Assembly (NCBI GenBank): GCA_049322955.1
Contig: JBMOPU010000012.1
Location: 19,581 to 83,580 of the forward strand
Origin: Patescibacteria group bacterium
Lineage (GTDB): Bacteria; Patescibacteriota; Microgenomatia; UBA10105; UBA927
DNA: 64,000 nucleotides
Direction of reading: 5' to 3'
The notes under the pieces: generated by a model
What the model saw: only the letters and a program-made list of their open reading frames with translations
Databases searched by the model: none
What the model was told of the DNA's origin: nothing
Shown here: piece after piece, positions 26,475 to 39,932 of the stretch
Layout: each line of letters opens with the position of its first letter
Numbering within the stretch: the first letter of the stretch is position 1
Translations under genes and position numbers: made by a program

Positions 26475-26969
26475 ATGAAACGGGCGATTCTGTCGCTATC
26501 TTTGTTTTTGGTTGCTACCTTTTCCCTTTTGCCTATCATGGGGGCTTTCATGCCGCAGATTTCCGCACAGGGGTTTGGCGGGGTATCCGCCGGTGCGGGA
26601 ACTTCCGCAGATGATTCCGTCGGCGAAAGCGCCTGCCGGTTTGTTACTTCCGGTGAAGCGGGAACATGCAAATCGTGTTTTGAGGGTGGCGGTGCGTGGA
26701 CGGCGATCGGTTGTTTGGGCGGCGAAACTCCGAATGACTTCATCGCATCGTTTTTGAAAATCGGCACGGGACTCGGAGGCGGTGTTGCGTTTCTTTTGAT
26801 CCTGTTTTCCGGTTTTCAGCGGATAACAAGTGCAGGCAATCCAGAAAAGCTTCACGAAGCAAAAGAGCTTATGACCGCGGCGGTCTCGGGTCTATTGCTT
26901 ATTATTTTCTCTATCTTCTTGCTCAGACTTATCGGCGTCGATATATTACAGATACCAGGGCTTAACTAG
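26475..26969 (+). CDS. T4SS-pilin-like (TrbC/VirB2-like) small membrane protein
   Basis: Two TM helices flanking GNPEKLHEAK loop; paralogous to six genes at 36.1-38.3 kb. Confidence 0.5.
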   Translation: MKRAILSLSLFLVATFSLLPIMGAFMPQISAQGFGGVSAGAGTSADDSVGESACRFVTSGEAGTCKSCFEGGGAWTAIGCLGGETPNDFIASFLKIGTGLGGGVAFLLILFSGFQRITSAGNPEKLHEAKELMTAAVSGLLLIIFSIFLLRLIGVDILQIPGLN

Positions 26970-26971
26970 GT

Positions 26972-27319
26972 ATGCAAAAGACACTTGCACAGTTTTCTAT
27001 AGGCGGCGGGAGTAACGGTCCGGGAATTGATATTCAGGGGCCGGAAGGTTTTGCGTTTGAAGGTGCGGGCATAGGGGAAATAATCGGACAGTCGTTAAGC
27101 TATGTCTTCGCCGCGGCAGGCATCGGACTTCTTTTGATGATAATCTCCAGCGGTTTTTCGATGATGATGAGCGCCGGGGACCCCAAGAAGGCGGCCGCGG
27201 GAAAGACCGCGCTTACCAACGCCATAATCGGTTTTATCTTAATTTTTGCCGCATTCTGGATTGTGCAGATAATGGGAACGATTCTGGGGTGGCAAAGTAT
27301 CCTCGATATCTTCCAGTAA
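26972..27319 (+). CDS. T4SS-pilin-like (TrbC/VirB2-like) small membrane protein
   Basis: TM - AGDPKKAAAGKTALTNAIIGFILIF - TM pattern; N-terminal MQKTLAQ. Confidence 0.55.
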   Translation: MQKTLAQFSIGGGSNGPGIDIQGPEGFAFEGAGIGEIIGQSLSYVFAAAGIGLLLMIISSGFSMMMSAGDPKKAAAGKTALTNAIIGFILIFAAFWIVQIMGTILGWQSILDIFQ

Positions 27320-27320
27320 T

Positions 27321-28001
27321 TCATTTGCCAAACCGCCGTTGCCGCTTTTCATATTCCTCAAGCGCTTCATCCAGTCTCGCAGGAGTAAAATCCGGCATGT
27401 GCCAAGGCGGAAAATATAGTTCGCTATAGGTGCTTTGCCAGGGAAGAAATCCCGATAACCGTTGTTCCCCGCTCGTACGGATAATAAAATCAGGATCGGG
27501 AATGTCCTTGGTATCCAGATACTGTGAAAATACCTCTGACGTTATTCCCTGCGTCGAGGGAAGCGCGCGGATGGCACGGAGTATTTCATCACGGCCGCCG
27601 TAGTTCAGGGCAAAGACGGCGGTTATTTTTTTATTGTGTTCCGTCTGGTTCATGACATCCACCAACGCTTGTTGGATATCCGGGGCAAATTTGGATATGT
27701 CGCCTATTACCTTCACCCGTACTCCCTTTTCATGCAGACGTTGCCAGCGTTTCCGTATCGTATGGCGAAATATTCGCATAATTCCTTCGACTTCCTTTGC
27801 GTCACGATGCCAGTTTTCCGTGGAAAACGCCCAAAACGTCACATAGGAAATACCTCGCGCCGCGGCGTGCTCAACAAGCGGCTCCAACACTTCATCGGAA
27901 ACCCGCTGGTGGCCGGAAAGCACCGGAAGTCCCTGCTCCTTTGCCCACCTGCGGTTACCGTCCATAATGATTGCAATATGGGTGGGTATCGTCTTTGTCA
28001 T
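27321..28001 (-). CDS. uppS: undecaprenyl-diphosphate synthase (cis-isoprenyl transferase)
   Basis: HIAIIMDGNRRWA and family motifs. Confidence 0.8.
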   Translation of the reverse strand: MTKTIPTHIAIIMDGNRRWAKEQGLPVLSGHQRVSDEVLEPLVEHAAARGISYVTFWAFSTENWHRDAKEVEGIMRIFRHTIRKRWQRLHEKGVRVKVIGDISKFAPDIQQALVDVMNQTEHNKKITAVFALNYGGRDEILRAIRALPSTQGITSEVFSQYLDTKDIPDPDFIIRTSGEQRLSGFLPWQSTYSELYFPPWHMPDFTPARLDEALEEYEKRQRRFGK

Positions 28002-28007
28002 AACGGT

Positions 28008-28988
28008 TTAGAATAAATGCGCGGATATGGTTCGCGCGCCCTTCGCCACTTTATTGTAAATAATTTCTTCAATCCCGGAAATATCAGTGAGTTCTGCTTT
28101 TACCCGTGATATGTCTTTTTCCTCACAGATAAGATGCACGTTTGGTCCCGCATCAATCGTAAAATATACGGGAATGCCTTTCGTTCTCCACACGGGTACC
28201 GCGGTCATGATCGCTTGGGTTACTTCACTCCAATACGAAAGCGGAGGATTTTGCGTTTGCATCACCCGGTGCATATCAAGACAATCTTCTTCAATGATAC
28301 TCCCCAGTGCCGCAAAATCCTTGCGGGCGAGTGCTTCTGTTGCCCGTTTCAAGCGGGCGGGCACTGCCAAAAGGCGGGAAGATAAATACGGGCTGGTCGT
28401 GACGTTTCTCATGCCGTCTGACGTCGCCACTTTTTTCATACGCTTATCCACAATCACCAAAAGGTCGCAAAGATCCCAATAGTTCTCGTCATAGAGCGAA
28501 TAGGCATACGATGTTTCATGACTCGTCCCCTTCTCCCAGACAACAAACCCCGAAGGAATACTCCGACACGCGCTTCCCGAACCCAATCGTGCAAATAGGG
28601 TCAGTTCTTTCTGAGATAACGAAACATTTGCGGCCGCGAATCCGGCCGTCATGAGCGCCGCAAACCCAGAGGCTGATGCCGCCGAACCCGCTCCTTTGGG
28701 AAACGTGTTTTTTGTCACTACGCGGGCACGGAACGGACAATTCGCCCTGGTTCGTATGACATCAAGCCCTGCCGTAACACGCGCGGTTTCTTCCGGTGAA
28801 AATGTTGCGTCAACAATATGCACTTCGTCCCGTGTATAGTGCTCGGAAAATTCCACCGTCGTTTGGGTGAATGCGCCTGATAAGTTCATGGAAAGCGAGT
28901 CATTAAGCGGCAATCGGAGTTGCTCATCCGCTTTCCCCCAGTACTTGATGAACGCGATATTTGCCGGTGCTTCCGCGGTTGCTTTCAT
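28008..28988 (-). CDS. mvaD: diphosphomevalonate decarboxylase
   Basis: NIAFIKYWGK motif. Start set at MKATAE (ATG overlapping the upstream TGA). Confidence 0.75.
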   Translation of the reverse strand: MKATAEAPANIAFIKYWGKADEQLRLPLNDSLSMNLSGAFTQTTVEFSEHYTRDEVHIVDATFSPEETARVTAGLDVIRTRANCPFRARVVTKNTFPKGAGSAASASGFAALMTAGFAAANVSLSQKELTLFARLGSGSACRSIPSGFVVWEKGTSHETSYAYSLYDENYWDLCDLLVIVDKRMKKVATSDGMRNVTTSPYLSSRLLAVPARLKRATEALARKDFAALGSIIEEDCLDMHRVMQTQNPPLSYWSEVTQAIMTAVPVWRTKGIPVYFTIDAGPNVHLICEEKDISRVKAELTDISGIEEIIYNKVAKGARTISAHLF

Positions 28989-29905
28989 GATTCCCTCCGT
29001 ACTCCGTCGGCTTGCGGAGTAATGTGGATAACTTTTCCACCCGCCTGTTCGATCGCGCGGGACACATCGGGTTGTTTTTCCGGAGGCACCATTGCGATCA
29101 TACAGTCCCCTCCGCCGGCGCCTGATAATTTTGCTCCCCACGCACCCGCTCCTTTGGCGGCAACAATAAGGCTCTCGAGTTGTTCACTGCTTACGCCCAA
29201 ATCACGCAGATACTCCTGATTGAAATCCATAAGTTTGCCCACGCGTTCCCAATCTCCCTCGGCTATCTTTGCTTTCGCATCAGTCGTAAGCTTGGCGATG
29301 GCGGCAAAGATGCGGGACACTTTTTCCTGCTGTTCTTCATACTTTTTTGCCACTTCAGCAACGATTGTCGGCGTATCGGCCTTAACCCCGCTAAATCCCA
29401 CTATAAGCGGCATCGGGGCATGAGGAACCGGGGTAATCGTCTTCCCCAACCGGTCATACCACAGCGTGCCTCCCCAAATTGCCGATGCGGCATCAAAGCC
29501 AGATCCCACCATTTGCACGGACAGTATTGCCTCGTATGCCAGACTAAAAAGTTCTTTTTTACTCACCGGTTTTCGGCAGTATTCCCCCATCGCAAAAAGC
29601 GTGGCAACCGTAACGGCGGCCGATGATCCCAGACCGTAATTGCCCGAAAACGTGCTTTGTGTGGTGATGGAAAGCGCATCAAAGGATTGTTTCCAATGTT
29701 TTTTTGCGACGACAAGTGCCGCTTCAATAAAGCGGGTATCATTCACTCCCGGCGTCAAAAAGTGCGACGAACCGTCTGAAGACTCGGTAACTGATACCGA
29801 AAGCCGCTCGCTCACCGCCGTTACTAAACACGGATTTTTATACACCACCGCGTGGTCCCCCATGAGCAGTAGCTTCCCCGGTGCCGATACGGTTATGGTG
29901 TTCAT
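28985..29905 (-). CDS. GHMP kinase, mevalonate/phosphomevalonate kinase family (probable phosphomevalonate kinase)
   Basis: APGKLLLMGDHAVVY and GLGSSAAV GHMP motifs. Confidence 0.6.
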   Translation of the reverse strand: MNTITVSAPGKLLLMGDHAVVYKNPCLVTAVSERLSVSVTESSDGSSHFLTPGVNDTRFIEAALVVAKKHWKQSFDALSITTQSTFSGNYGLGSSAAVTVATLFAMGEYCRKPVSKKELFSLAYEAILSVQMVGSGFDAASAIWGGTLWYDRLGKTITPVPHAPMPLIVGFSGVKADTPTIVAEVAKKYEEQQEKVSRIFAAIAKLTTDAKAKIAEGDWERVGKLMDFNQEYLRDLGVSSEQLESLIVAAKGAGAWGAKLSGAGGGDCMIAMVPPEKQPDVSRAIEQAGGKVIHITPQADGVRRES

Positions 29906-30849
29906 ACGATAATCTGTTCGCGTTGCACACCGGCACCGCCAAGCTGTGTCTCAAATGAGGGGTACCCGTGTTGTTTTGCTAGTTTTTTTATGAGTGCCGG
30001 TTCCTGATGGCTTGCAAATACTACCCCGCTCCCGCCTTCTCTCCCTCCTGCACCGCTAATTTTGGCAACCCCGCCGATTTTTTCAATATTCCTGATGAGT
30101 AATTGCGCGGATGGCGATACGACCCCCATTGTTTCCAACAATTGCTCGTTCGTTCGTAGACCGTCACGAAAGGCTTCTTCCCGTTCATCATGAAGCGCAG
30201 AAGTTATCTCTTTGGTTACGTTTTCTATCCGCGAAAGCAACTCGGCAAAACGCGCTTCGTCTTGCGTTTTCTGTTCTGCCACCATTTGTACCAAATCCCC
30301 GGTGCTTTCGGTTCTTCCGGTGTTAATAAGGACAAACGGGGAAAAGGTACGAGGAATTTTAAATGATAGGAGCCAAAGGGTTTTTAAGAATTCAAGTTCT
30401 TTCCGGTACCAAAGAATTCCTCCGTGGGCGGAAACCGCAGGATCGCTTCCCGAACTGTTTTTATGTTTCGTCTTTTCCGCAAGATATGCACCGTCGTGTA
30501 TGGCCTGTACGTTCCATGGCTCGTTATGCCAAACGGAGAGTGCGCCAATAAGCGCTACGGCAAGCGCCGCGGAGGATCCCATACCGCTTCCCACGGGAAT
30601 TGCCGAATCAATGGTGATAAAACATGACGGAACTAACACCTTGGCGTATTTCTTTTCAAAAGCGTTTGCTATGGCATCAATGTATGCGTCTTTTTTCCGT
30701 AACGCGGTAAGTGAGACTTCCCCCTGTTTTGAAAGAGTGACAGAGAGACGGAGTGACGTGGCAACAATAAGCGACGGTTTGCCGTACACGACGGCGTGTT
30801 CACCGGTAATATGTAATTTACCGGGGGCTGATACGGTAACTTTTTTCAT
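29902..30849 (-). CDS. mevalonate kinase (GHMP family)
   Basis: APGKLHITGEHAVVYG and PVGSGMGSSAALAVA. Start set at MKKVTV (ATGA overlap with the DUF35 gene). Confidence 0.6.
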   Translation of the reverse strand: MKKVTVSAPGKLHITGEHAVVYGKPSLIVATSLRLSVTLSKQGEVSLTALRKKDAYIDAIANAFEKKYAKVLVPSCFITIDSAIPVGSGMGSSAALAVALIGALSVWHNEPWNVQAIHDGAYLAEKTKHKNSSGSDPAVSAHGGILWYRKELEFLKTLWLLSFKIPRTFSPFVLINTGRTESTGDLVQMVAEQKTQDEARFAELLSRIENVTKEITSALHDEREEAFRDGLRTNEQLLETMGVVSPSAQLLIRNIEKIGGVAKISGAGGREGGSGVVFASHQEPALIKKLAKQHGYPSFETQLGGAGVQREQIIV

Positions 30850-31148
30850 ACAAGCGGCTTGGCTTTGATACCGTATGGAATCACTCCGTCGGTATCGGGG
30901 TTCATAACGCGTCGAACTACGGTAATAACTTTTTGTCCCGCGGTCAGATGGTGCTTTTCGTAATCGACCAATTGACACACCATTGTGGTGTTATCGGCAA
31001 GCTGAAGCAATACCACGGGATACGGTGCCTGATCGGTAAAGTCACCGGGAGGAACACGGATGATTGTCCACGAAAGAATTGTCCCGATCTTCCCGATCGA
31101 GCTCGCTATTCGTTTTTGATTTCTCCACACTTTTACCGGACTGTGCAT
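30846..31148 (-). CDS. DUF35-type OB-fold protein (thiolase/HMGCS scaffold, archaeal-type)
   Basis: 100-aa protein between thiolase and kinases. Confidence 0.55.
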   Translation of the reverse strand: MHSPVKVWRNQKRIASSIGKIGTILSWTIIRVPPGDFTDQAPYPVVLLQLADNTTMVCQLVDYEKHHLTAGQKVITVVRRVMNPDTDGVIPYGIKAKPLV

Positions 31149-31199
31149 AGTAGTTATATCGCTAAATCGTTACCTTTCATTTGTCGTTATATAACGGAA

Positions 31200-32366
31200 T
31201 CACTTGTGTTCTGACTCGCTCTTTAAAATATGTATCACCGCCGTCGCCCCGCTCCCACCCACATTATGGGCAAGACCGACGGCGGCACCGGGTACCTGCC
31301 GTTTTCCCGCACTCCCGCGCAACTGTTCTACCAACTCGACGATTTGTTTAACCCCGGTGGCTCCTACCGGATGACCGCATCCTTTGAGTCCTCCCGAAGG
31401 GTTCACCACTACCTGAGGATTCTTTCCCAACATCGTTTTTCCCGCTTCAATGGCGGCGGCCGCTTTCCCTTTGGGAAAAAAGCCCAGATCCTCGGTCGCA
31501 AGAATTTCAGCGATCGTAAAACAATCGTGTACTTCTGCTACGGCAACATCTTGTGCGGAAATATGTGCAATTTCGTACGCACGCTTGGCGGCCTGTTCTG
31601 TTGCCGAAAGCTTGGTAAGGCTTTTTCGTTGCGAAAGTCCCAGGGAATCGGTGGCCACCACGGAAGCGGCAATTTCAATTTGCTTATGGTGTTTGGCTTT
31701 TGAGTTTTTACTCGTGAGAACGACGGCGGCGGCGCCGTCCGATATCGGCGAACAATCAAGAAGCTTTAACGGGTCGGCGATTTTTCCGCTTTTCATGACC
31801 TGTTCAACGGAGAGCAGATTGTGAAATTGGGCATTGGGGTTTAAGGACGCGTGGTAATGATTCTTTACGGCAACTGCGGCCATTTGTTCTTCCGTCGTCC
31901 CATACTGTGCCATGTGCACACGGGCAAGCATGGCGTACAAACCGGGGAATGTCGCCCCTGATACGCGCTCTTCTTCGCTTCCCGCTCCCATAAGTGCGGT
32001 TGCCACATCTTCCGGTTTATGGTCGGTCATTTTTTCAATACCCAGCGCTACCACCGTATCATATTGACCGCTTAATAAGCTGTTAACGGCATTATGAAGC
32101 GCAAGGCCGCCCGACGCACATGCACCTTCCACCTTAAACGCAGGAACGGTAAGACCCAGTTCTTCGGCAAAAAACGCACCAAGATGCTCTTGTCCTCCCA
32201 ACATCCCTGATAGCATATTGCCCACGAATAGCGCCTGTACGTCATTTGCGGTTTTTTTTGCATCGGCAAGCGCATCAAAAACCGCCTGGCGTGCAAGCCC
32301 TCGCGGGGAGGCGCTCCAAAGTTCTCCAAAGGCGGTTGTTGATGCTCCAGCTACGTATATTTTCAT
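31200..32366 (-). CDS. acetyl-CoA acetyltransferase (thiolase, archaeal-type)
   Basis: 388 aa, thiolase pattern with active-site Cys region VEGACASGG. Confidence 0.75.
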   Translation of the reverse strand: MKIYVAGASTTAFGELWSASPRGLARQAVFDALADAKKTANDVQALFVGNMLSGMLGGQEHLGAFFAEELGLTVPAFKVEGACASGGLALHNAVNSLLSGQYDTVVALGIEKMTDHKPEDVATALMGAGSEEERVSGATFPGLYAMLARVHMAQYGTTEEQMAAVAVKNHYHASLNPNAQFHNLLSVEQVMKSGKIADPLKLLDCSPISDGAAAVVLTSKNSKAKHHKQIEIAASVVATDSLGLSQRKSLTKLSATEQAAKRAYEIAHISAQDVAVAEVHDCFTIAEILATEDLGFFPKGKAAAAIEAGKTMLGKNPQVVVNPSGGLKGCGHPVGATGVKQIVELVEQLRGSAGKRQVPGAAVGLAHNVGGSGATAVIHILKSESEHK

Positions 32367-33406
32367 AGTTTATGCGTCATTTTTAAAAACTCTACATAAT
32401 CGATATACCGTTTGTTGGCGATTGCATCGGACACCAAAAGTTTTTTTGTACGGCGAACGGTCTGAAGGTCGGTAAGTTTTTCCGTAGTTTTCCACACAAA
32501 CGCATCACTCCCCGCCCCCGACCCATACGACACCATAAATATTTTCTTATTGGGAGTTGCGATGTCACAAATTGCGGAGAGCCCCAACATCGCAGTCGCC
32601 GAGTACGCATTTCCTATCGCATCCACGGTAAGTGACGGTACCAGTTGCTCCGGCGAAAATCCCAATCGTTTTGCCACTTCTCTGGGGAATTTTCCGTTGG
32701 GCATATGAAAGACACAATAATCGTAGTCAGAGGCGGTTGTTTTTGTCATGCCAAAAAGCCGGGTGGCCGCCCCCATAACATGCTGATAATACGCCGGTTC
32801 ACCAGTAAATCTTCCCGCATGCGACGGATATCGCATCCCGTCCCGACGCCAGAAATCAGGTGTATCCGATGAATACGAGGTATCGGCAAGAAGCTGTACC
32901 GCGATATTGTCACTCCCGATAAGAAACGCCGCTCCTCCCGCCGCCGCAGTGTATTCGAGAAAGTCGTGAGGTTTCCCTTGTGCCGTGTCCGCACCGATAG
33001 CCATCCCGTATTTTGCATGTCCCGCGGCAACGAGTCCCGCGATGGCCTGCACGGCGGCGGTGCCTGCTTTACAGGCAAATTCCATATCTGCGGCCAAGTA
33101 TGATGAGCCTATCCCCAACAGCTCTCCCACGATGGTCGAGGTGGGATTGACCGCATACGGATGACTTTCGCTTCCGACAAATAATACATCAATATCCGCC
33201 GGTTCCCCTTGAAACGGGACAAGACACGCCTGCGCCGCTTCGATGGCAATGGTTGCCGCATCTTCATCCGATGCAGGCACTGACTTATCCGTAAGACCGA
33301 GCGACCGCACGACCTCCTGCGGTTCTTTCCGCCATGCCGCCGCAATGTCCGCAATACGGATCCGATGTTGCGGAATATAGGTGCCGTATGAAATGATACC
33401 GATCAT
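32363..33406 (-). CDS. mvaS: hydroxymethylglutaryl-CoA synthase (archaeal-type)
   Basis: 347 aa, MIGIISYGTYIP start typical of archaeal-type HMGCS; 4-nt overlaps both sides. Confidence 0.75.
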   Translation of the reverse strand: MIGIISYGTYIPQHRIRIADIAAAWRKEPQEVVRSLGLTDKSVPASDEDAATIAIEAAQACLVPFQGEPADIDVLFVGSESHPYAVNPTSTIVGELLGIGSSYLAADMEFACKAGTAAVQAIAGLVAAGHAKYGMAIGADTAQGKPHDFLEYTAAAGGAAFLIGSDNIAVQLLADTSYSSDTPDFWRRDGMRYPSHAGRFTGEPAYYQHVMGAATRLFGMTKTTASDYDYCVFHMPNGKFPREVAKRLGFSPEQLVPSLTVDAIGNAYSATAMLGLSAICDIATPNKKIFMVSYGSGAGSDAFVWKTTEKLTDLQTVRRTKKLLVSDAIANKRYIDYVEFLKMTHKL

Positions 33407-34590
33407 ATTGTTTTTCCTCTCGCAAGTTTTTCATGGGAACGGGAAAGTGTCTGTTCAGCAAGAGAACTTAATAGCGACACCTCACCCGCAAGCACCGCAC
33501 CGCCGATGATTTCTGCAAATCGCTCGGCATGCTTTCCGTCGTCGCCTCCCCCAACCCCAAGCAGTGATAGTGCTTCCCGTTGAGTCGCAAGTCCCGTTCC
33601 CCCTCCGACCGTCCCTATCATAAGATCAGGAAGATAAACCCCGATATGGAGCGCATCGCCATTGACAATGTTAGCGGTCGTTATTCCCAGGCTTCCTTCA
33701 ACAACATGCGCCGGATCCTGACCCGTTGCTATAAAAAGCGCGGCGATCACATTGGCATATTGGGCATTAAATCCCATACTGCCGCTTACCGCGCTTCCGA
33801 TCATACATTTCGCCATCCAGGTATCAAAAACATGCACGGCGTCGGTTTTCAACACATCGGATAACACCGCTTTTGAAAGCACCGTTTCCGCCCACACCGG
33901 TCGCCCGCGCTTGTTCACCATATTCTGCCATGACGGCTTCTTATCGACACAGAAATTTCCCGAAAGCGCCACACACGCTGTCTCTGTTGCTTCCTCAATG
34001 TGTCGTACGACGCGATCCGTCGCAATCGTGACCATGTTGAGACCCATGGCATCTTTGGTGTCATAGACAAACCGCATATACCGATAGAGCCCCACTCCCG
34101 TTGAGGTAACACTTTTTAACGTTAGGTGGCGCGAGGTTGCCTCCGCGATCTCTTTTAACCGCAAAAATTGATCGGTAACATAGGCCTCAAGGCGGGCGCT
34201 TTCCGCAAGGGACCGCACCTTAAATACCGGTCCCCTGGTTGCCCCGACAAGCGAACTTCGCACATTCGCTCCGCCGCTTTCCGATATTGCCTTGCACCCG
34301 CGACTAACGGAGGCGACAAGTGCCCCTTCGGTGGTTGCGAGCGGAAGGTAATAATCTGCCGTATCCCCGTCCGGATGGGTAAGCCTCACCGGCCCGGCGA
34401 CACCGACCGGCACCTGCGCGACTCCGATCATGTTTTCGCAATTTCTCGTGCTTGCGGTTGCTTCATCAAACGTAAATTTCCCGGTATGGGATAAGGTAAT
34501 CCCTCGTACCTCTTCAAGTTTGTTCCTTCGCGCTTCCGAAGACGGCAGGGTGCGAAGTGATACGGTTGTTGATTTCATAGGTCGTGTCAT
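33403..34590 (-). CDS. mvaA: HMG-CoA reductase, class I
   Basis: ENMIG, DAMGLNM, GTVGG motifs. Confidence 0.8.
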   Translation of the reverse strand: MTRPMKSTTVSLRTLPSSEARRNKLEEVRGITLSHTGKFTFDEATASTRNCENMIGVAQVPVGVAGPVRLTHPDGDTADYYLPLATTEGALVASVSRGCKAISESGGANVRSSLVGATRGPVFKVRSLAESARLEAYVTDQFLRLKEIAEATSRHLTLKSVTSTGVGLYRYMRFVYDTKDAMGLNMVTIATDRVVRHIEEATETACVALSGNFCVDKKPSWQNMVNKRGRPVWAETVLSKAVLSDVLKTDAVHVFDTWMAKCMIGSAVSGSMGFNAQYANVIAALFIATGQDPAHVVEGSLGITTANIVNGDALHIGVYLPDLMIGTVGGGTGLATQREALSLLGVGGGDDGKHAERFAEIIGGAVLAGEVSLLSSLAEQTLSRSHEKLARGKTI

Positions 34591-35210
34591 AGGAACGGTA
34601 CTTTAAAAACCCCCAGGCGATACATGCCGATCGCCCATGCGGTCATAATCGGCGCACACCCGATCCCCACAATGATCGCCTGTACTAAATCCAGCTTCAA
34701 TGTGAAGCGAAGTGTCAGATATGAAAGGGTAACTTTCCACCAAAGAAGGCTTGCGCTGAATATGATAAACAGGAGACTAAAAAGAATACCCATGGCACTG
34801 GTTGTCCGGGGAGGCGGCAACAACACATAGAGCATTGATGTGGCAAAAAACCATAAAACGGTAGGAATCAGCGTGTACGACCAGGCAAGAATGACGGTCG
34901 AGAAAGAAGCGGTCTTTCTGAAAAGCGATCCCATAACCACCATACTTGCCGCGGCAAACAACACCCCGCTTGCCGCACCGAGTGCAAGTAACACAAACTG
35001 CTGGGTGAGGAGGAACGGCCGGAATGCCGCGATTTTGACAACACTTGCCAGCGCGAAATACCCTGACAGCAGGAGGCCGATAAAGAGCAGTTCGCCGCTT
35101 TTCCCGTGGCTCACTATCATGCGATAGGTTTGGTATGGGCGGGTCGTCAACCCGATAAGGGTGCGCCCGAAATTTACTCCATCAATAATAAGCTGACTTA
35201 CCCGGTCCAT
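34587..35210 (-). CDS. hypothetical membrane protein
   Basis: Start trimmed to MDRVSQ (ATG 35210) to remove overlap with the anti-sigma ORF. Confidence 0.4.
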   Translation of the reverse strand: MDRVSQLIIDGVNFGRTLIGLTTRPYQTYRMIVSHGKSGELLFIGLLLSGYFALASVVKIAAFRPFLLTQQFVLLALGAASGVLFAAASMVVMGSLFRKTASFSTVILAWSYTLIPTVLWFFATSMLYVLLPPPRTTSAMGILFSLLFIIFSASLLWWKVTLSYLTLRFTLKLDLVQAIIVGIGCAPIMTAWAIGMYRLGVFKVPFL

Positions 35211-35263
35211 ACCATGGTAGTCGAAAAAGCGGAGAAAAACCTGCGAATGGGTAATCGACGGCC

Positions 35264-35494
35264 TTAAAATCCGCGTTGTAGTAAGGTAACGATGGCCGCA
35301 ATGCCCGGCCCGAAGATAACATAGAGTCCCGCGGTAAATACCAGGCTTACGCCTAAAAACCACGGCCACGGCATGATTTTTAGCCGTTTGGTCATACGCT
35401 TATAGAGGCCGGTCAACGGACCCAATGTTTGAGGGGGTATGTCCACTACCTCTTCCCAACGCCGGACAAATTTCTGATAGGTGGCATCCGTCAT
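35264..35494 (-). CDS. putative anti-sigma factor (small single-TM protein)
   Basis: 76 aa, cytoplasmic N-term + one TM, immediately downstream of the ECF sigma gene. Confidence 0.4.
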   Translation of the reverse strand: MTDATYQKFVRRWEEVVDIPPQTLGPLTGLYKRMTKRLKIMPWPWFLGVSLVFTAGLYVIFGPGIAAIVTLLQRGF

Positions 35495-35496
35495 AG

Positions 35497-36039
35497 TTAT
35501 ATCGATAAAAACACCTCAACAAAGGCTCTTCTGGCCCGAAACAATCGGGATTCCGCACTCTTAAAACTGATCGAGAGTTGGCGCGCGATGTCTTCAACGC
35601 TGACGTGATCAAGATATTTGAGCGTCAGCACTTTGCGATGCATGGGAAGCATACGGGCGAGCGCTTTTTGTATTTTTTCCTTCACCAGGGAAACATCGAG
35701 TTCTTCTTCGGGACCGAGCATCGGAGAAACGAGAAATTCGAGTTGCGGCATCTGTGAAAACACCACATGTCGCAATTTTTTCCTCCGGTAATAATCAACA
35801 ATCTTGTGTTGGCAAATCGAAAAAAGGTACGTGCGCACCGAACTTTTCTGCTGAAAGTCACGAATACCTTCCAAAAATGAAAAAAGCGTGTCCTGGAGAA
35901 TTTCCTCGGCATCCTCCCCCGTCTTAACTTTTCCGGTAATGTAGCGCCTCAACTGCGGGGCATATTGCCGGTAAAACGCGCTCGCGGCCTGACGGTCACG
36001 GGCAAAAAGCCTGGTGATAAGCTGTGCATCGTTCATCAT
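35497..36039 (-). CDS. ECF-type sigma-70 family RNA polymerase sigma factor
   Basis: Region 2 and region 4 patterns (…YLFSICQHKIVDYYRR…, LKYLDHVSVEDIARQLSISFKSAESRLFRAR). Confidence 0.75.
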   Translation of the reverse strand: MMNDAQLITRLFARDRQAASAFYRQYAPQLRRYITGKVKTGEDAEEILQDTLFSFLEGIRDFQQKSSVRTYLFSICQHKIVDYYRRKKLRHVVFSQMPQLEFLVSPMLGPEEELDVSLVKEKIQKALARMLPMHRKVLTLKYLDHVSVEDIARQLSISFKSAESRLFRARRAFVEVFLSI

Positions 36040-36098
36040 GAAGCGTTCTCCACTTTACCACAATTGACGCGTCGCCTCAATTTTAGGTACACTGAAAA

Positions 36099-36408
36099 TA
36101 TGTTTGAACAAGTGATGGCCCAGTCGGAAAACCTGCAGGATCTCGCCCCGAATCCGGGACTTACCACCTTCGGTATGCTGATTACCGCAATCGTGAAAAA
36201 CGCGTTCGTTTTGGCCGGTATCATAAGCTTTATTTTGTTGATTTTCGGCGGATTTAACGTTATAGTAGCGGCAGGTGACGCGAAAAAAGCGCAACAGGGC
36301 AAGACGGCCATCACCGGGGCGGTTACCGGACTTTTGGTTGTTTTGGGTTCGTTTTGGCTTGTTCAAATTATAGAAGTCATCACCGGACTTAAATTGTTGA
36401 GTCCCTAA
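36099..36408 (+). CDS. T4SS-pilin-like (TrbC/VirB2-like) protein
   Basis: TM - AAGDAKKAQQGKTAITGAVTGLLVVLGSFWLVQII - TM. Start set at MFEQVMAQ. Confidence 0.55.
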
Positions 36409-36414
36409 ACACGT

Positions 36415-36774
36415 ATGAAACTGCTCGCACAAGCTGGAGATATCGTAGGATCCATTGAGAGTCCGCTTTCAAACACCGGTTACGGCAGTATCCAATCCGG
36501 TGCGGTTGGGCTGTTTATCACCAATGTCATCCGGCTGGCTTTTGTCGCCGCGGGAATCTATGCGCTTTTTAACTTTATTATCGCGGGCTATTCGTATATG
36601 AACGCCGCGGGTGACAGCAAAAAACTCTCAGAGGCGTGGAGTCGGATTTGGCAATCCCTATTGGGACTCATCATCATCGTCGGATCATTTGCGATCGCCT
36701 CCCTCTTCGGATATCTTATATTCGGGAACGCGGGATTCATCTTAAATCCGACCATTTACGGACCGGGTGAATAA
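36415..36774 (+). CDS. T4SS-pilin-like (TrbC/VirB2-like) protein
   Basis: NAAGDSKKLSEAWSRIWQSLLGLIIIVGSFAIA motif block. Confidence 0.55.
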   Translation: MKLLAQAGDIVGSIESPLSNTGYGSIQSGAVGLFITNVIRLAFVAAGIYALFNFIIAGYSYMNAAGDSKKLSEAWSRIWQSLLGLIIIVGSFAIASLFGYLIFGNAGFILNPTIYGPGE

Positions 36775-36779
36775 TTCGT

Positions 36780-37145
36780 ATGAGACAACTTGCATTGGAA
36801 TTGGGACAAATCGGCGGACAGGGACTTGGTCCTTTTGGGTCAAACCCCGGTGACGGGCTGACCGGGATTACCGGTATGGTCTCTTCGACAATCGGCGTCA
36901 TGACTATCGCCGCGGGTATTTGGTTTCTTTTCCAGTTTATCATCGGCGGATTCAACTGGATTAATGCCGGCGGTGATAAAGCAAAGCTCCAGGCGGCAAG
37001 AGACAGACTAACGAACTCTTTGGTGGGACTTATCATCGTCACCGCGGGCTGGGCTGTACTTGCGGTTGCGGGAACATTCCTCAATGTGGACTTTACGATA
37101 TCAAATCCCGGAGGGATATTAGAGCAACTCAGTCCAAACAGATAA
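36780..37145 (+). CDS. T4SS-pilin-like (TrbC/VirB2-like) protein
   Basis: NAGGDKAKLQAARDRLTNSLVGLIIVTAGWAVLAVA motif block. Confidence 0.55.
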   Translation: MRQLALELGQIGGQGLGPFGSNPGDGLTGITGMVSSTIGVMTIAAGIWFLFQFIIGGFNWINAGGDKAKLQAARDRLTNSLVGLIIVTAGWAVLAVAGTFLNVDFTISNPGGILEQLSPNR

Positions 37146-37150
37146 CTACC

Positions 37151-37492
37151 ATGAAAAATCTCGCTCAGATAGTAAATCCGGTTCTTCCCGGCTCACTCGG
37201 ACGAGGAGGCAATGACACGGGCCCTTCCGCGTTGGGGTCGATTATCAGTTCGCTGGTCGGCGTATTTTTGATTTTGGCGCTTATTTCGACGTTTTTATAC
37301 ATGATGCTCGGCGGGTTTGACTGGGTAACTAGCGGCGGGGACAAAACAAAGCTCCAGTCGGCACGCGATAAAATCACCAACGCACTTGTCGGTCTTGTGG
37401 TTGTTGGAGCCTCGTGGGCAGTCATGATGATCGTCTCCAATTTCATCGGTATTGATTTTCCCAACTTACCCATCCCCGTAGTAGGAAACTGA
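37151..37492 (+). CDS. T4SS-pilin-like (TrbC/VirB2-like) protein
   Basis: SGGDKTKLQSARDKITNALVGLVVVGASWAVMMIV motif block. Confidence 0.55.
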   Translation: MKNLAQIVNPVLPGSLGRGGNDTGPSALGSIISSLVGVFLILALISTFLYMMLGGFDWVTSGGDKTKLQSARDKITNALVGLVVVGASWAVMMIVSNFIGIDFPNLPIPVVGN

Positions 37493-37536
37493 CTCGTCAG
37501 GGCAAGCATTCCTCATGGTTGACAAAAGGAGTTTTG

Positions 37537-37565
37537 TTGCGCAAAAATGAAAGGTACAGTATAAT
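37537..37565 (+). promoter_or_regulatory. sigma-70-like internal promoter (TTGCGC-17-TATAAT) inside the pilin array
   Basis: ttgcgc 37537-37542, 17-nt spacer, tataat 37560-37565, 35 nt before ATG 37600. Confidence 0.35.
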
Positions 37566-37599
37566 AAAGCCCATATAGTTCTGACGAAAGGATTCATTT

Positions 37600-37929
37600 A
37601 TGGAAAAAGTATTTGCCCAGGCAGCGCTTGACGTCAAACAACCGGACACCATTAAAATTACCGACATCGGTAAGCTGATTAGCGCGTTGGTCGGAACAGT
37701 TCTTATCATCGCGGCGCTTCTGGCATTTCTTTACCTCATTTTGGGTGGTATCAAGTGGATTACCTCGGGCGGCGATAAGGCCGGCATGGAGGAAGCACGA
37801 AACAAAATCACCCATGCAATCGTGGGGCTTATCATTGTCGGCTCTGCATGGGCAGTGATGACGCTCGTCCAAAACTTCCTGGGCGTCCAGATCATCGGTG
37901 GCTCCATCAACTTCCCGAAGCCATACTAA
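37600..37929 (+). CDS. T4SS-pilin-like (TrbC/VirB2-like) protein
   Basis: SGGDKAGMEEARNKITHAIVGLIIVGSAWAVMTLV motif block. Confidence 0.55.
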   Translation: MEKVFAQAALDVKQPDTIKITDIGKLISALVGTVLIIAALLAFLYLILGGIKWITSGGDKAGMEEARNKITHAIVGLIIVGSAWAVMTLVQNFLGVQIIGGSINFPKPY

Positions 37930-37977
37930 CGGTTTTTTGGTCTTTACGCGAGGGAGTTCCTCAGCGATAATAGGTAT

Positions 37978-38274
37978 ATGGAAAGCTGTTCTGTTGACGG
38001 TGTTGCACAAATCACCTGTCTCGTTCCCCTTGTCGCGAATGTTATTCGAGCAGTTGTTTCATTGGGCGCAGTTGCATTGTTCGTCATGTTGCTTGCGGGA
38101 GGATTTAATTTTCTCTTTTCCTCAGGCGATCAGAAAAAACTTGAGTCTGCGCGCGGCACCGTTACACAAGCAATTACCGGTATTATCATCATGTCCGTCG
38201 CCTATCTTATTATCAAAACCATACAAGTATTTACCGGGGTGGACGTTTCAACCATACAGTTTCCCACCCAGTAA
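37978..38274 (+). CDS. T4SS-pilin-like (TrbC/VirB2-like) protein
   Basis: SSGDQKKLESARGTVTQAITGIIIMSVAYLIIK motif block. Confidence 0.5.
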   Translation: MESCSVDGVAQITCLVPLVANVIRAVVSLGAVALFVMLLAGGFNFLFSSGDQKKLESARGTVTQAITGIIIMSVAYLIIKTIQVFTGVDVSTIQFPTQ

Positions 38275-38312: not shown

Positions 38313-39932
38313 ATGAAACGAGTATTCGGAGCAATTATCGGGGTGCTGTTGAGCGTTGTTCTCGTCGTTACTCCTTCCGTGGTCTTTGCGCAGGGAACGG
38401 ATTCGACTGCCACCGCGGGAGCCGGCGAGTGTGATTCATGGTTTGTTGCTCCGGTCACGTGTCTTCTGGACCCTATCACGAAAGGGGTTGCCGGTTCATT
38501 AAATAAGCAGGTAGGCGACATCGGTACCGCAACATTTTCCATGGGACAAATGGTCATTGCGGGTATGGGTCTTTGTGATTCCGAATGTAATCCTAATTGT
38601 CCCAAGGGGGTAAGTTACCAGCATAGTGCCGTTGCGGGTCTTTCCACCACCGCGCTTGCGATGTATCAGAATCCTCCGGCCGAAACGAAAACCTATATTG
38701 CCGATGTCGGACAGACATTGGGATTCATGCCTAAAAAAGCGCAGGCACAGGGCATCGGATTTTCCGGACTTGCGGCCCTTCTCGAACTTTGGAAATCATT
38801 CCGGAACATCGCATATGCGTTGCTTGCCGTAATTCTGATTGTGGTGGGCTTTATGGTCATGTTTCGGAAAAAGATCGATCCCAAGACCGTCGTCACGGTG
38901 CAGAATGCGATCCCCCGCATTGTCATTGCCCTGCTTTTGGTCACCTTCTCCTATGCGATCGTCGGGGTCATGATTGACCTCATGTATCTTGCCATTGTGA
39001 TGATCGTTTCAATCGTTTCGGGAGCGGCTGGACCAGCTCTTGGCCAGTCGGTGAGCTTATTTACCACCGGCGGATCATGCGTCGGTTCGGGAACGGGAGC
39101 CGTAGAGATCGGCGCGGGAACGGCAACGACGGAAAAAGTGGCGAGCGTGCTGTTTAACGGCGGCGTCGGCGGATTAATGCAATTTTTCATGGGGAGCGGG
39201 TTTCAGGCATGGGACGATATTGCCGCAATGTTAACCGGCGGCTTTGATCCGAAAACGACCGCGGCATACTTTATCGTACCCGGACTTATCGGTGCACTGG
39301 TAGGTGGCGGCAAGGGATTATTCACCGGGCTCGTGTCCGCCCCGATACTCTTGACATTAATCATCCTCATCGTGTTAATCTTTGGGTTTATCAGACTCGT
39401 CTTCATGCTGATTGATGCCTATATAAACATCATCATTTCTCTCCTTACCGCCCCCTTCCATCTGATGATGGAGGCGGTTCCGGGCACCAATGCGTTTGCC
39501 AATTGGTTTAAAAACTTGCTTTCCAAGATTATTGTCTTCCCTATTACCGCAGTACTCCTTTTGGTCGCCGCAATTCTCACTTCACAAAATGTCGCCACGA
39601 GTATTTGGGCTCCTCCTATGCTTTCAACCGGCGGTGGCACATTCGGTATGGCCGGTATCATAGGACTCGGCATGTTGCTCGTGATTCCGACAGTCGTGGG
39701 AGGCATCCAAAAAGGCTTAAAGGCCGAGCCTCTTGTCCCCGGCGGCGTCGGACCAATCTTCGGACCTCTTGGCTCGGGCGTCGGACAACTCTTCTCGCTC
39801 GTCTATCAGGCGTCGTTCGTTTCAAGTGCGCTTCGCCACAAACCGGACGACCGATCGGGCATGCAAATTGCCAGAGAAGGCGCTTCAAAGGGTCTTGGCG
39901 CGATTACGGGCGCCGGCGGCGGCGGTCACTAA
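38313..39932 (+). CDS. VirB6/TrbL-like polytopic membrane protein (signal peptide, Cys-rich ectodomain, multiple TM, Gly-rich GGGGH tail)
   Basis: 539 aa, N-terminal signal, at least 6 TM helices, located immediately after the pilin array. Confidence 0.45.
   Translation: MKRVFGAIIGVLLSVVLVVTPSVVFAQGTDSTATAGAGECDSWFVAPVTCLLDPITKGVAGSLNKQVGDIGTATFSMGQMVIAGMGLCDSECNPNCPKGVSYQHSAVAGLSTTALAMYQNPPAETKTYIADVGQTLGFMPKKAQAQGIGFSGLAALLELWKSFRNIAYALLAVILIVVGFMVMFRKKIDPKTVVTVQNAIPRIVIALLLVTFSYAIVGVMIDLMYLAIVMIVSIVSGAAGPALGQSVSLFTTGGSCVGSGTGAVEIGAGTATTEKVASVLFNGGVGGLMQFFMGSGFQAWDDIAAMLTGGFDPKTTAAYFIVPGLIGALVGGGKGLFTGLVSAPILLTLIILIVLIFGFIRLVFMLIDAYINIIISLLTAPFHLMMEAVPGTNAFANWFKNLLSKIIVFPITAVLLLVAAILTSQNVATSIWAPPMLSTGGGTFGMAGIIGLGMLLVIPTVVGGIQKGLKAEPLVPGGVGPIFGPLGSGVGQLFSLVYQASFVSSALRHKPDDRSGMQIAREGASKGLGAITGAGGGGH

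What the first reader, a model, noticed from the sequence alone, without database searches (positions are those of the whole stretch)
26475..38274. Eight T4SS-pilin (VirB2/TrbC-like) paralogs in two arrays with conserved N-terminal M-x-x-L-A-Q leaders
Two paralogs at 26.5-27.3 kb and six at 36.1-38.3 kb share the architecture hydrophilic leader - TM1 - (A/S)GGD.KK...AR..IT.A..GL..V..(S/A)W loop - TM2. Most begin M-x-x-L-A-Q. An internal TTGCGC-17-TATAAT promoter sits before the last two. Such expansion suggests antigenic or functional diversification of a surface filament, perhaps for DNA uptake or host-cell attachment in an episymbiont.
Basis: partly seen in the sequence, partly recalled or inferred. 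Interest (0 to 1): 0.65.

Follow-up and report, generated by a model that had tools for sequence, protein, structure and literature searches.

The report
Eight-gene T4SS pilin set, Gottesmanbacteria
The window carries eight small VirB2-like "pilin" genes belonging to the chromosomal type IV secretion system of a Candidatus Gottesmanbacteria (CPR/Patescibacteria) bacterium; such pilin arrays were already described in 2023-2025, and here the set looks like an old, fixed group of specialised subunits, not a variable antigen repertoire.

Summary
Eight + strand ORFs (P1-P8; 98-164 aa) share a two-helix hairpin with a conserved GGD.KK…AR..IT.A..GL loop. All eight hit Pfam PF18895 (T4SS_pilin); three pass the curated cut-off. 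They sit in a monoderm-type T4SS locus (VirB6-like, T4CP, PrgI/VirB3, TrsD, VirB4 of the CD1110 family, M23 hydrolase) next to dnaN/dnaA. The organism is a Candidatus Gottesmanbacteria.

The kind is already known. Patescibacterial VirB2 arrays of 2-11 genes (mean identity 25%) and the six essential pilins of Southlakia are published.

New here:
- The six-gene array has strict positional orthologs in about 25 species.
- P1-P2 plus P3-P8 form one contiguous eight-gene array in a more distant lineage.
- All pilins are under purifying selection, and P7 is the slowest-evolving gene in the locus.
- P7 has its own promoter (TTGACA…TTGCGCAA…TATAAT plus SD), conserved across species.
- The M-x-x-h-A-Q start is conserved. 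It equals the local signal-peptide cleavage motif and recurs at junctions of fused multi-pilin proteins elsewhere.

Antigenic variation is not supported. Ancient functional specialisation (one major and several minor subunits) is the best reading.

The parts
26475..26969 (+). P1: long pilin paralog (164 aa). Sec signal peptide ending ISA|Q, a 4-Cys N-terminal ectodomain, then the pilin hairpin.
   Evidence: PF18895 28.7 bits, above GA 26.6. Sequence. A P1-like long pilin next to SpoIID is conserved in the metagenome loci.
26972..27319 (+). P2: pilin paralog (115 aa), starts MQKTLAQ.
   Evidence: PF18895 42.3 bits. P2 orthologs follow P1 in related loci.
36064..36093 (+). Promoter-like site for P3-P6: TTGACG-18-TACACT. 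The -10 ends 6 nt before the ATG, which would give a leaderless mRNA.
   Evidence: ATTGAC-N17/18-TACACT-N6-8-ATG is conserved across species.
36100..36408 (+). P3: pilin paralog (102 aa; alternative start 36115).
   Evidence: PF18895 E=1.1e-4. Positional orthologs.
36415..36774 (+). P4: pilin paralog (119 aa), starts MKLLAQ.
   Evidence: PF18895 E=7e-4. Positional orthologs.
36780..37145 (+). P5: pilin paralog (121 aa), starts MRQLALE.
   Evidence: PF18895 E=3.7e-4. Positional orthologs.
37151..37492 (+). P6: pilin paralog (113 aa), starts MKNLAQ. 50% identical to P7.
   Evidence: PF18895 E=8.7e-5..
37519..37592 (+). Conserved P7 promoter and leader: TTGACA 37519-24; palindrome TTGCGCAA 37537-44 (-35 TTGCGC); TATAAT 37560-65; SD AAAGGA 37587-92.
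   Evidence: All elements are conserved in about 20 species.
37600..37929 (+). P7: most conserved pilin (109 aa), starts MEKVFAQ. Candidate major subunit.
   Evidence: PF18895 41.2 bits. 62-100% identity in orthologs, with the lowest dN of the locus. AF2 model is a helical hairpin, H20-55 and H60-93.
37943..37971 (+). Promoter-like site for P8: TTTACG-17-GATAAT, 6 nt before the ATG (leaderless-type).
   Evidence: Conserved in most orthologous loci.
37978..38274 (+). P8: pilin paralog (98 aa) with two N-terminal Cys.
   Evidence: PF18895 25.9 bits, E=1.1e-5. Positional orthologs.
38313..39932 (+). 539-aa polytopic membrane protein with signal peptide (…VVFA|QG). VirB6-like candidate.
   Evidence: No Pfam or NCBIfam hit. 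In the Foldseek search of the AF2 model (pLDDT 63), 7 of the top 14 hits are TrwI/VirB6 chains of R388, prob up to 0.94 but E=0.12.
44346..46529 (-). Type IV coupling protein (VirD4-like).
   Evidence: TrwB_AAD_bind, TraG-D_C and T4SS-DNA_transf. CD1115-like.
46653..47963 (+). PrgI/VirB3-like N-terminus fused to a CarboxypepD_reg-like domain.
   Evidence: PF12666, 27.6 bits.
47968..48630 (+). TrsD-like protein (split N-terminal VirB4 part).
   Evidence: NF041427 E=1.9e-6, below cut-off.
48485..50557 (+). VirB4 ATPase, CD1110 family (MPF-FATA type).
   Evidence: NF045971 397.6 bits, above cut-off 325. P-loop_TraG and AAA_10.
50563..52710 (+). M23 peptidoglycan hydrolase (functional VirB1 analogue).
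   Evidence: PF01551. Same position as the M23 gene in the Pontibacillus T4SS.

Best explanation
The eight genes are the VirB2-like pilin set of a chromosomal, monoderm-type (MPF-FATA-like) type IV secretion system in a Candidatus Gottesmanbacteria bacterium.

Shown:
- Family membership, T4SS linkage and hairpin architecture.
- The eight genes are halves of one ancestral contiguous array (SpoIID<->P1-P2-P3-P4-P5-P6-P7-P8). In this lineage about 8.8 kb (UppS, the mevalonate operon, an ECF sigma module) splits it.
- Each paralog has a positional ortholog in every related species examined.
- All are under purifying selection.

Inferred:
- Each protein inserts N-out/C-out with the K/R loop in the cytoplasm. 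Seven of the eight have no classical signal peptide, as in archaeal CedA1.
- The VirB4/VirB6-like machine then extracts them and builds one heteromeric tube or pilus-like conduit.
- P7 is the major subunit. It is the slowest-evolving gene of the locus and the only one with its own consensus TATAAT promoter plus a Shine-Dalgarno site.
- P1 (Cys-rich ectodomain), P2-P6 and P8 are minor, priming, tip or adaptor subunits. Their more variable N-terminal ectosegments face outward.
- The conserved M-x(1-5)-h-h-A-Q start marks the N-terminal boundary of the pilin module and is probably a maturation site.
For: Family and context:
- All eight hit PF18895.
- VirB4 CD1110 scores 397.6 bits. T4CP, PrgI, TrsD and M23 are nearby. 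The adjacent 539-aa protein is VirB6-like.
- dnaN and dnaA are adjacent, as reported for Patescibacteria (PMC12102498).
- The P7 AF2 model is a helical hairpin.

Conservation:
- Six-gene arrays occur in about 25 Gottesmanbacteria loci, always in the order P3..P8.
- In locus L105 the order is P1|P2|P3|P4|P5|P6/7|P7|P8.
- dN/dS is 0.01-0.35. P7 has dN 0.01 where VirB4 has 0.07-0.08 and dnaN 0.16-0.25.
- The P7 promoter is conserved.
- Variability is concentrated in the N-ecto segment.

N-terminal motif:
- The h-h-A-Q motif is conserved in orthologs and in 108 of 120 P7 homologs.
- It is identical to local signal-peptide c-regions: VVFA|QG, ISA|QG.
- It is enriched at junctions of 2- and 3-repeat fused pilins: 21/67 against 2.4 expected, and 11/78 against 1.7 expected.

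Precedents and relatives:
- An unprocessed VirB2-like pilin (CedA1) and a cleaved one (TedC, AVA|QA) are both known (PMC9905601).
- A Bacillota megaplasmid T4SS with the same gene order carries two homologous pilin-like genes.
Against: - No filament has been seen for any patescibacterial T4SS. The literature speaks only of a 'potential to elaborate pili' (PMC12857230).
- The major/minor assignment rests on conservation and promoter signals, not on expression data.
- Five of the eight score below the Pfam gathering cut-off.
- There is no PF04956 hit.
- Foldseek gave no pilin match for the P7 model, because a two-helix hairpin is too simple.
- Cleavage at A|Q without a preceding h-region has no known enzymology, and no SPase I-like gene was found in the window.
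- Fused proteins with four or more repeats lack the junction motif. Processing is therefore not general.
Confidence: 0.6

Rival explanations
1. The hairpin proteins never leave the membrane. They are structural subunits of the translocation channel itself, for example a heteromeric ring or sheath around VirB6, comparable to c-ring-type hairpin oligomers. They would not form an extracellular pilus.
For: - No pilus has been observed.
- Related proteins exist as covalently fused chains of 4-17 hairpins without junction motifs. These chains fit a membrane-embedded pseudo-oligomer better than a secreted filament.
- The most conserved hairpin of the 539-aa VirB6-like protein weakly resembles the pilin hairpin.
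- Monoderm conjugative systems with homologous pilin-like proteins are not known to make pili.
Against: - Classical VirB2 also resides in the membrane before extraction, so residence there does not exclude a pilus.
- The N-terminal ectosegments and the Cys-rich ectodomain of P1 suggest exposure to the outside.
- The hhalign support for the pilin/VirB6 similarity is insignificant: probability 4%, E=0.01.
Confidence: 0.25
2. The paralogs are alternative filament subunits that provide antigenic or host-range variation. Different cells or conditions would use different pilins.
For: - Paralogs are highly divergent (mean 28% identity).
- There are several internal promoters (P3, P7, P8), so differential expression is possible.
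- An analogy with Bartonella and Anaplasma virB2 paralogs is cited in the literature.
Against: - Gene number and order are invariant across about 25 species, and colinear in a distant lineage.
- Every paralog is under purifying selection, with dN/dS 0.01-0.35.
- Orthologs are much closer to each other than paralogs are.
- There are no long DNA repeats or invertible elements that could drive gene conversion or switching.
- In Southlakia the pilin series is reported as essential.
Confidence: 0.12
3. They are generic two-TM membrane proteins unrelated to secretion, and the PF18895 hits are compositional.
For: - Five of the eight score below the gathering cut-off.
- Hydrophobic hairpins attract spurious matches.
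Against: - Three of the eight pass the cut-off.
- The conserved loop motif is not compositional.
- Synteny with VirB6-like, VirB4 and T4CP genes is conserved across species.
- A homologous pair lies in the same position in a Bacillota T4SS, scoring 58 and 44 bits against the window-derived HMM.
Confidence: 0.02

Closest known systems
Patescibacterial VirB2-like pilin arrays (Quinonero-Coronel et al. 2025, PMC12102498; 441 arrays of 2-11 genes in 383 assemblies, abundant in Microgenomatia and Saccharimonadia)
   Same: - PF18895-type pilins in tandem, near virB4 and near the replication origin.
- Low intra-array identity: published mean 25%, maximum 54%; here mean 28%, maximum 50%.
- MPF-FATA-like core genes and no relaxase in the cluster.
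   Different: Nothing categorical; this locus is another member. What is added here: strict positional orthology, purifying selection, one outstandingly conserved member with its own promoter, and the reading that the array is a fixed heteromeric set and not a source of host-adaptive variability.
Southlakia epibionticum ML1 T4SS pilin cluster (Wang et al. 2023, PMC10633639; 6 VirB2-like pilins, essential by Tn-seq)
   Same: A series of divergent VirB2-like pilins inside a Gram-positive-type T4SS cluster of a CPR epibiont. The core array also has six members.
   Different: - The lineages differ (Saccharimonadia versus Microgenomatia).
- A T4CP is present here, whereas none was recognised in Se.
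- There are two extra paralogs (P1, P2) at a distance.
- Orthology between the two sets of six was not tested.
Mbov_0395-family pilin-like conjugal transfer proteins (NCBIfam NF045849) of monoderm ICEs and plasmids
   Same: - Homologous hairpin: NF045849 E=3e-7 for P7.
- The two Pontibacillus plasmid genes score 58 and 44 bits against the window-derived HMM.
- Same gene order: pilin(s), large membrane protein, small proteins, VirB4 CD1110, M23.
- Both Pontibacillus proteins have a signal peptide plus a Cys-containing ectodomain, like P1.
   Different: - Window proteins score below the equivalog cut-off (30 versus 40 bits).
- The Bacillota system has two copies, not eight, and both carry full signal peptides.
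- It lies on a mobile element, not on the chromosome near oriC.
Classical conjugative pilins VirB2 / TrbC / TraA (PF04956 and relatives)
   Same: - Small two-helix hairpin with a basic loop.
- Encoded with VirB4 and VirB6.
- In VirB2 the mature N-terminus follows an A|Q signal-peptidase site, as it does in archaeal TedC (AVA|QA).
   Different: - No PF04956 hit.
- Seven of the eight lack the long signal peptide.
- Eight paralogs instead of one.
- Monoderm host.
Archaeal Ced/Ted pilins (CedA1 unprocessed; TedC cleaved), PMC9905601
   Same: VirB2-like hairpin pilins in organisms without an outer membrane. CedA1 is assembled without signal-peptide processing, which is a precedent for the pilins here that lack a signal peptide.
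   Different: No detectable sequence relationship was tested or found. Those are single pilins, not arrays.
Major/minor pilin sets of type IV pili and T2SS pseudopili (functional analogy only)
   Same: One abundant, conserved major subunit plus several low-abundance paralogs that prime or tip the fibre. Orthologs are stable across species.
   Different: Unrelated fold and machinery. No prepilin peptidase motif.

Membership tests
Pfam PF18895 T4SS_pilin | HMM match at or above the gathering score (26.6 bits) | tested here: met
   P1 28.7, P2 42.3 and P7 41.2 bits pass. P8 25.9, P6 23.0, P3 22.7, P5 21.0 and P4 20.0 bits fall just below, with E 1e-5 to 7e-4. The precomputed Pfam marks in public gene calls agree.
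Pfam PF04956 TrbC/VirB2 | HMM match | tested here: not met
   No PF04956 hit at E<=0.1 for any of the eight.
VirB2-like conjugative pilin (architecture) | Small protein with two hydrophobic helices that form a hairpin joined by a short K/R-containing loop | tested here: met
   Hydropathy. Loop composition. AF2 model of P7 with H20-55 and H60-93, core pLDDT 81-95.
VirB2-like conjugative pilin (architecture) | Long N-terminal signal peptide removed by signal peptidase I | tested here: not met
   Only P1 has one. P2-P8 start 5-10 residues before the A-Q motif, and stops lie 2-5 codons upstream of four of them. Whether the short leader is removed cannot be tested here.
VirB2-like conjugative pilin (function) | Polymerises into an extracellular lipid-bound filament | not testable with these tools
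   No pilus has been reported for any patescibacterial T4SS.
VirB2-like conjugative pilin (structure) | Fold match to solved pilins (TraA, VirB2, CedA1, TedC) | tested here: inconclusive
Patescibacterial VirB2 array (PMC12102498) | [quoted passage not shown] | tested here: met
   Arrays of 2 and 6 genes. VirB4 CD1110 family at 397.6 bits. Mean identity 28%, maximum 50%. Gottesmanbacteria source.
NCBIfam NF045849 Mbov_0395 pilin-like conjugal transfer protein (equivalog) | Score at or above 40 bits | tested here: not met
   P7 30.0 bits and P1 27.9 bits. They are homologous but fall outside the equivalog.
Antigenic-variation pilin repertoires (e.g. Anaplasma/Bartonella virB2 paralogs, Neisseria pilE/pilS) | Lineage-specific turnover of copies, recombination substrates (repeats or silent cassettes), and diversifying selection | tested here: not met
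   Copy number and order are fixed in about 25 species. dN/dS is 0.01-0.35. The only repeats are 17-22 nt, over the conserved GGF codons.
T4SS locus membership | Physical linkage to VirB4, VirB6-like, VirB3-like and T4CP genes, conserved across species | tested here: met

The most novel reading that the evidence does not exclude
The conserved M-x(1-5)-h-h-A|Q start may be a genuine maturation site that works without a signal-peptide h-region.

The same motif ends true signal peptides: P1, the VirB6-like protein, and the first repeats of fused proteins. It opens the stand-alone genes. It also sits 16-28 residues before the next hairpin at junctions of 2-3-repeat fused pilins.

This would mean that CPR/monoderm T4SS pilins are made as mini-propeptides or as polyproteins. 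A signal-peptidase-like activity would trim them to a Gln-initiated mature pilin, using the preceding TM2 or a dedicated enzyme. That would be a new pilin-processing route.

Coupled to this, the eight paralogs may form one fixed-stoichiometry heteromeric conduit.
Probability: 0.2. Interest if true: 0.6.

Novelty: new member of a known kind. Interest (0 to 1): 0.35.

Why it matters
The T4SS and its pilin series are essential for the epibiotic life of the only genetically tractable CPR bacterium, and what they build or transport is unknown. If the array is a fixed, ancient set with one hyper-conserved, separately promoted member, the question changes. It moves from 'variation for host range' to 'architecture of a heteromeric machine'. 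It also points experiments at P7-type subunits and at the A|Q boundary. The link to two-copy pilin-like genes in Bacillota T4SSs suggests the pilins are native to monoderm conjugation systems and were not borrowed from diderms. The locus itself is an ordinary example of a published phenomenon.

Tried and rejected
- A profile search of PDB sequences with the pilin alignment found nothing relevant. P1 and the 1213-aa protein also found nothing.
- The pilin HMM against the 539-aa VirB6-like protein gave a weak hairpin match at residues 166-224 (10 bits). hhalign gave probability 4%, E=0.01. I keep this as a lead only.
- dS is saturated in most species pairs, so dN/dS could be used only for a subset. 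No site-level selection test was run.
- A motif search for an SPase I/TraF-like peptidase in the window (SM.P[TS] plus GDN) found none.
- tblastn of P7 against phages found nothing. Against plasmids it found one weak but informative hit.
- A stringent PSSM of the leader motif, which includes K at -4, under-detected AYAQ-type junctions. The simpler h-A-Q count with shuffles was used instead.
- A polyprotein made by read-through within this window was considered and rejected. Adjacent genes are separated by stops and are mostly in different frames.

Full report
**1. Observation**

Eight + strand ORFs lie at the stated coordinates:
- P1 26475-26969 (164 aa)
- P2 26972-27319 (115 aa)
- P3 36100-36408 (102 aa)
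- P4 36415-36774 (119 aa)
- P5 36780-37145 (121 aa)
- P6 37151-37492 (113 aa)
- P7 37600-37929 (109 aa)
- P8 37978-38274 (98 aa)

For P3, the mechanical ORF runs back to a TTG at 35965 inside the divergent sigma gene, and public gene calls start at ATG 36115.

All eight have two hydrophobic segments around a loop with 2-4 K/R. They align to the consensus …GGF..I.SAGD.KKL..AR..IT.A..GLIIV…. Pairwise identity is 19-50%, mean 28%; the closest pair is P6/P7.

Six of the eight start with M-x(2-4)-h-A-Q/L. P1 instead has a full Sec signal peptide ending ISA|QG. In-frame stops lie 2-5 codons upstream of P2, P4, P5 and P7, and the upstream frames of P3, P6 and P8 are hydrophilic. The short N-termini are therefore real.

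The promoter TTGCGC(37537-42)-17-TATAAT(37560-65) is present.

**2. What it is**

All eight hit Pfam PF18895 (T4SS_pilin). P1, P2 and P7 score above the gathering cut-off. The other five score 20-26 bits, with E 1e-5 to 7e-4. None hits PF04956 TrbC/VirB2.

The surroundings are a monoderm-type T4SS:
- Directly after P8 lies a 539-aa polytopic protein with a signal peptide. The best structural matches of its AF2 model are TrwI/VirB6 chains of R388: 7 of the top 14, prob up to 0.94, but E=0.12 and pLDDT 63. Support is weak but consistent.
- A VirD4-like coupling protein lies at 44346-46529 (-).
- A PrgI/VirB3-like fusion follows it.
- A TrsD-like protein comes next.
- The VirB4 belongs to the CD1110 family (397.6 bits, cut-off 325).
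- An M23 hydrolase completes the cluster.
- dnaN and dnaA are adjacent.

The source is a Candidatus Gottesmanbacteria (Microgenomatia, Patescibacteria). The T4CP is 98% identical to that in GCA_964449585.1, and 67-86% identical to that of named Gottesmanbacteria MAGs. Several MAG titles read 'uncultured Gammaproteobacteria'; this is evidently a deposit label and not the taxonomy.

**3. It is a published kind**

- PMC12102498 reports 441 VirB2 arrays of 2-11 pilin genes in 383 Patescibacteria assemblies. They are most abundant in Microgenomatia and Saccharimonadia, with mean identity 25% and maximum 54%. The T4SS often lies near dnaA. The authors speculate about host-strain adaptation.
- PMC10633639 shows that the pilin series of Southlakia is essential.
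- PMC12857230 describes it as six structurally conserved, sequence-divergent VirB2-like pilins.
- PF18895 dominates freshwater-specific structure clusters.
- A profile of the eight window proteins finds 83,278 cluster representatives at E<=1e-3 among 1.84 billion.

**4. What the comparative data add**

(a) The six-gene array is fixed. An HMM from the window copies finds six pilin ORFs in every Gottesmanbacteria locus that covers the region, about 25 loci with T4CP identity 67-98%. Reciprocal BLAST shows the order P3-P4-P5-P6-P7-P8 everywhere. Orthologs (45-100% identity) are always closer than the best paralog, apart from a few P6/P7 ties at the largest distances.

(b) The two arrays were once one.
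- Loci anchored on the SpoIID-like gene show that the divergent SpoIID<->P1(long)-P2(short) pair is widely conserved.
- In L105 a contiguous array reads P1|P2|P3|P4|P5|P6/7|P7|P8. L070 reads P1|P2|P3|P4|P5|….
- The window's two arrays are therefore halves of one ancestral eight-gene array.
- About 8.8 kb now splits them: UppS, the mevalonate pathway, HMG-CoA reductase, a Yip1-like protein, a 76-aa TM protein and an ECF sigma factor.

(c) Selection is purifying.
- dN/dS is 0.01-0.35 for every pilin where dS is not saturated.
- P7 has the lowest dN of all 19 genes compared in most species pairs. For example, it has 0.01 where VirB4 has 0.07-0.08 and dnaN 0.16-0.25.
- The M23 hydrolase, orf333, the PrgI fusion and the VirB6-like protein evolve fastest.
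- Within orthologs, variability concentrates in the N-terminal ectosegment just after the leader, and partly in the C-tail. TM1-loop-TM2 is nearly invariant in P7.

(d) There are no long direct or inverted DNA repeats in or around the arrays.

Together these points argue against antigenic or host-range variation by turnover or switching. They favour ancient subfunctionalisation.

**5. Regulation**

- The P6-P7 spacer carries TTGACA-N12-13-TTGCGCAA(n)AATG-N12-TATAAT, followed by an SD (AAAGGA or GGAGG). This is conserved in about 20 species. TTGCGCAA is an 8-bp palindrome.
- P3, P8, P1 and the VirB6-like gene have -10-like hexamers (TACACT or GATAAT) ending 6-8 nt before the ATG. The P3 and P8 sites are conserved across species (P1 and the VirB6-like gene were checked in the window only), which implies leaderless mRNAs.
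- P4-P6 follow their predecessors by 5-6 nt without an SD.
- P7 is thus the only pilin with a consensus promoter plus an SD. Together with its conservation, this makes it the best candidate for the major subunit. This is an inference.

**6. The N-terminal motif**

- Across orthologs of P3-P7, and part of P8, the start is M-x(0-5)-[VLI]-[FLY]-A-[QADE]. Of 120 P7 homologs, 108 have it, with -3 V, -2 F/L, -1 A and +1 Q/A.
- This is the same sequence as the c-region of the three clear Sec signal peptides in the window: VVFA|QG in the VirB6-like protein, AVAA|QS in SpoIID and ISA|QG in P1.
- Some P8 orthologs have longer ORFs, and at least one (L020) shows a full signal peptide ending YVVA|EE.
- The top hits of the profile search are natural fusions of 2-17 pilin hairpins in one ORF.
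- Junctions carrying h-A-Q:

| Fusion class | Junctions with h-A-Q | Expected from shuffles |
|---|---|---|
| 2-repeat | 21 of 67 | 2.4 |
| 3-repeat | 11 of 78 | 1.7 |
| 4 or more repeats | 5 of 166 | 4.3 |

- Examples are …SVAYAQFAG and …TSVHAQAPV. The motif sits 16-28 residues before the next hairpin, the same distance as in stand-alone genes.
- P0123 fuses a P1-like repeat and a P2-like repeat exactly where the window has 'LN* MQKTLAQF'.
- The motif is therefore a conserved boundary element of the pilin module, whatever precedes it. The simplest unifying reading is a maturation site that leaves Gln at +1, as with the AVA|QA site of TedC, but cleavage without an h-region is unproven.
- Unprocessed VirB2-like pilins are known (CedA1). 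No SPase-like gene was found in the window.

**7. Origin**

- P7 and P1 hit NCBIfam NF045849 (Mbov_0395 pilin-like conjugal transfer protein) below the cut-off.
- The only plasmid hit is that family in a Pontibacillus megaplasmid.
- There, two tandem pilin-like genes (58 and 44 bits against the window HMM) each have a signal peptide and a Cys-containing ectodomain, like P1. They precede a large membrane protein, small proteins, a VirB4 of the CD1110 family and an M23 hydrolase. This is the same order as here.
- The patescibacterial pilins therefore look like an expansion of a component native to monoderm MPF-FATA-type systems. A transfer from diderm T4SSs, left open in PMC12102498, looks less likely.

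**8. Mechanism and verdict**

The most likely mechanism is the following, and every step in it is inferred:
- The eight hairpins insert N-out/C-out. This is weakly supported by the positive-inside rule.
- The VirB4/VirB6-like machine mobilises them.
- They build one heteromeric tube or pilus.
- P7 is the bulk subunit. P1, P2-P6 and P8 are minor, tip or adaptor subunits.

The main rival is that they stay in the membrane as a channel sheath. Variant switching is unlikely.

This locus is a new member of a known kind. Its 'antigenic' reading is not supported. Interest is moderate to low. The A|Q boundary motif, the fused polyproteins and the fixed eight-member set are the points worth following.

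Noticed in passing
window 1-10917: A low-GC island (36-38% against about 50% elsewhere) encodes a TIR+Mrr_cat protein, a Prim-Pol/AAA_25 primase-helicase and a large serine recombinase. It ends at tRNA-Ser(GGA), 10832-10917. It looks like an integrated mobile element carrying a defence-type gene.
   Followed up: partly
window 26462-26474, 36088-36099, 37966-37977, 38299-38312; L008-L040 equivalents: -10-like hexamers (TACACT or GATAAT) end 6-8 nt before the ATG of P1, P3, P8 and the VirB6-like gene, with no SD. The P3 and P8 sites are conserved across species (P1 and the VirB6-like gene were checked in the window only). This suggests frequent leaderless mRNAs in this lineage.
   Followed up: partly
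window 37537-37544: The perfect 8-bp palindrome TTGCGCAA overlaps the -35 of the P7 promoter. It is invariant in nearly all related species and could be an operator as well as a -35 element.
   Followed up: partly
P0121-P0270 (representatives): Natural single-ORF fusions of 2-17 pilin hairpins occur in other organisms, for example P0135 (1775 aa) and P0138 (1147 aa). Those with 4 or more repeats lack the A-Q junction motif and may be membrane pseudo-oligomers.
   Followed up: partly
window 38808-38984 (residues 166-224 of the 539-aa protein): The most conserved TM hairpin of the VirB6-like protein (…FRKKIDPKTVVTVQNAIP…) aligns weakly with the pilin hairpin: HMM 10 bits, hhalign probability 4%. 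This echoes the reported VirB6 N-terminus/VirB2 similarity (PMC9905601), but it is not significant here.
   Followed up: yes
window 27321-34590 (- strand): UppS plus a complete-looking mevalonate pathway lie between the two pilin arrays: MVD, two GHMP kinases, thiolase with OB-fold protein, HMG-CoA synthase-like and HMG-CoA reductase.
   Followed up: no
window 34587-36039 (- strand): An ECF sigma factor, a 76-aa single-TM protein (possible anti-sigma) and a Yip1-like membrane protein are transcribed divergently from P3. They are conserved next to the array in all Gottesmanbacteria loci checked. The P3 promoter itself looks sigma-70-like, not ECF-like.
   Followed up: partly
window 40064-43705 (- strand): A 1213-aa protein between the VirB6-like gene and the T4CP operon has no Pfam, NCBIfam or PDB match. 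Its N-terminus is Pro/Thr/Glu-rich and it has no signal peptide. It is conserved in close relatives but not found in L016 or L040.
   Followed up: partly
window 10832-19549: Seven tRNA genes (five Ser, two Arg) lie on the - strand, interspersed with small ORFs. One is called tRNA-Ser with the unusual anticodon ACT, at 17436-17519.
   Followed up: no
L007, L010, L012 and others (record titles): Many binchicken or TPA MAGs that carry this Gottesmanbacteria locus are titled 'uncultured Gammaproteobacteria bacterium'. This is a probable mislabel in the public records.
   Followed up: no
window 50563-53721: The M23 hydrolase and the following 333-aa signal-peptide protein are by far the fastest-evolving genes of the locus. 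M23 identity is 82% and orf333 identity 62% in a strain where the T4CP is 98% identical.
   Followed up: no
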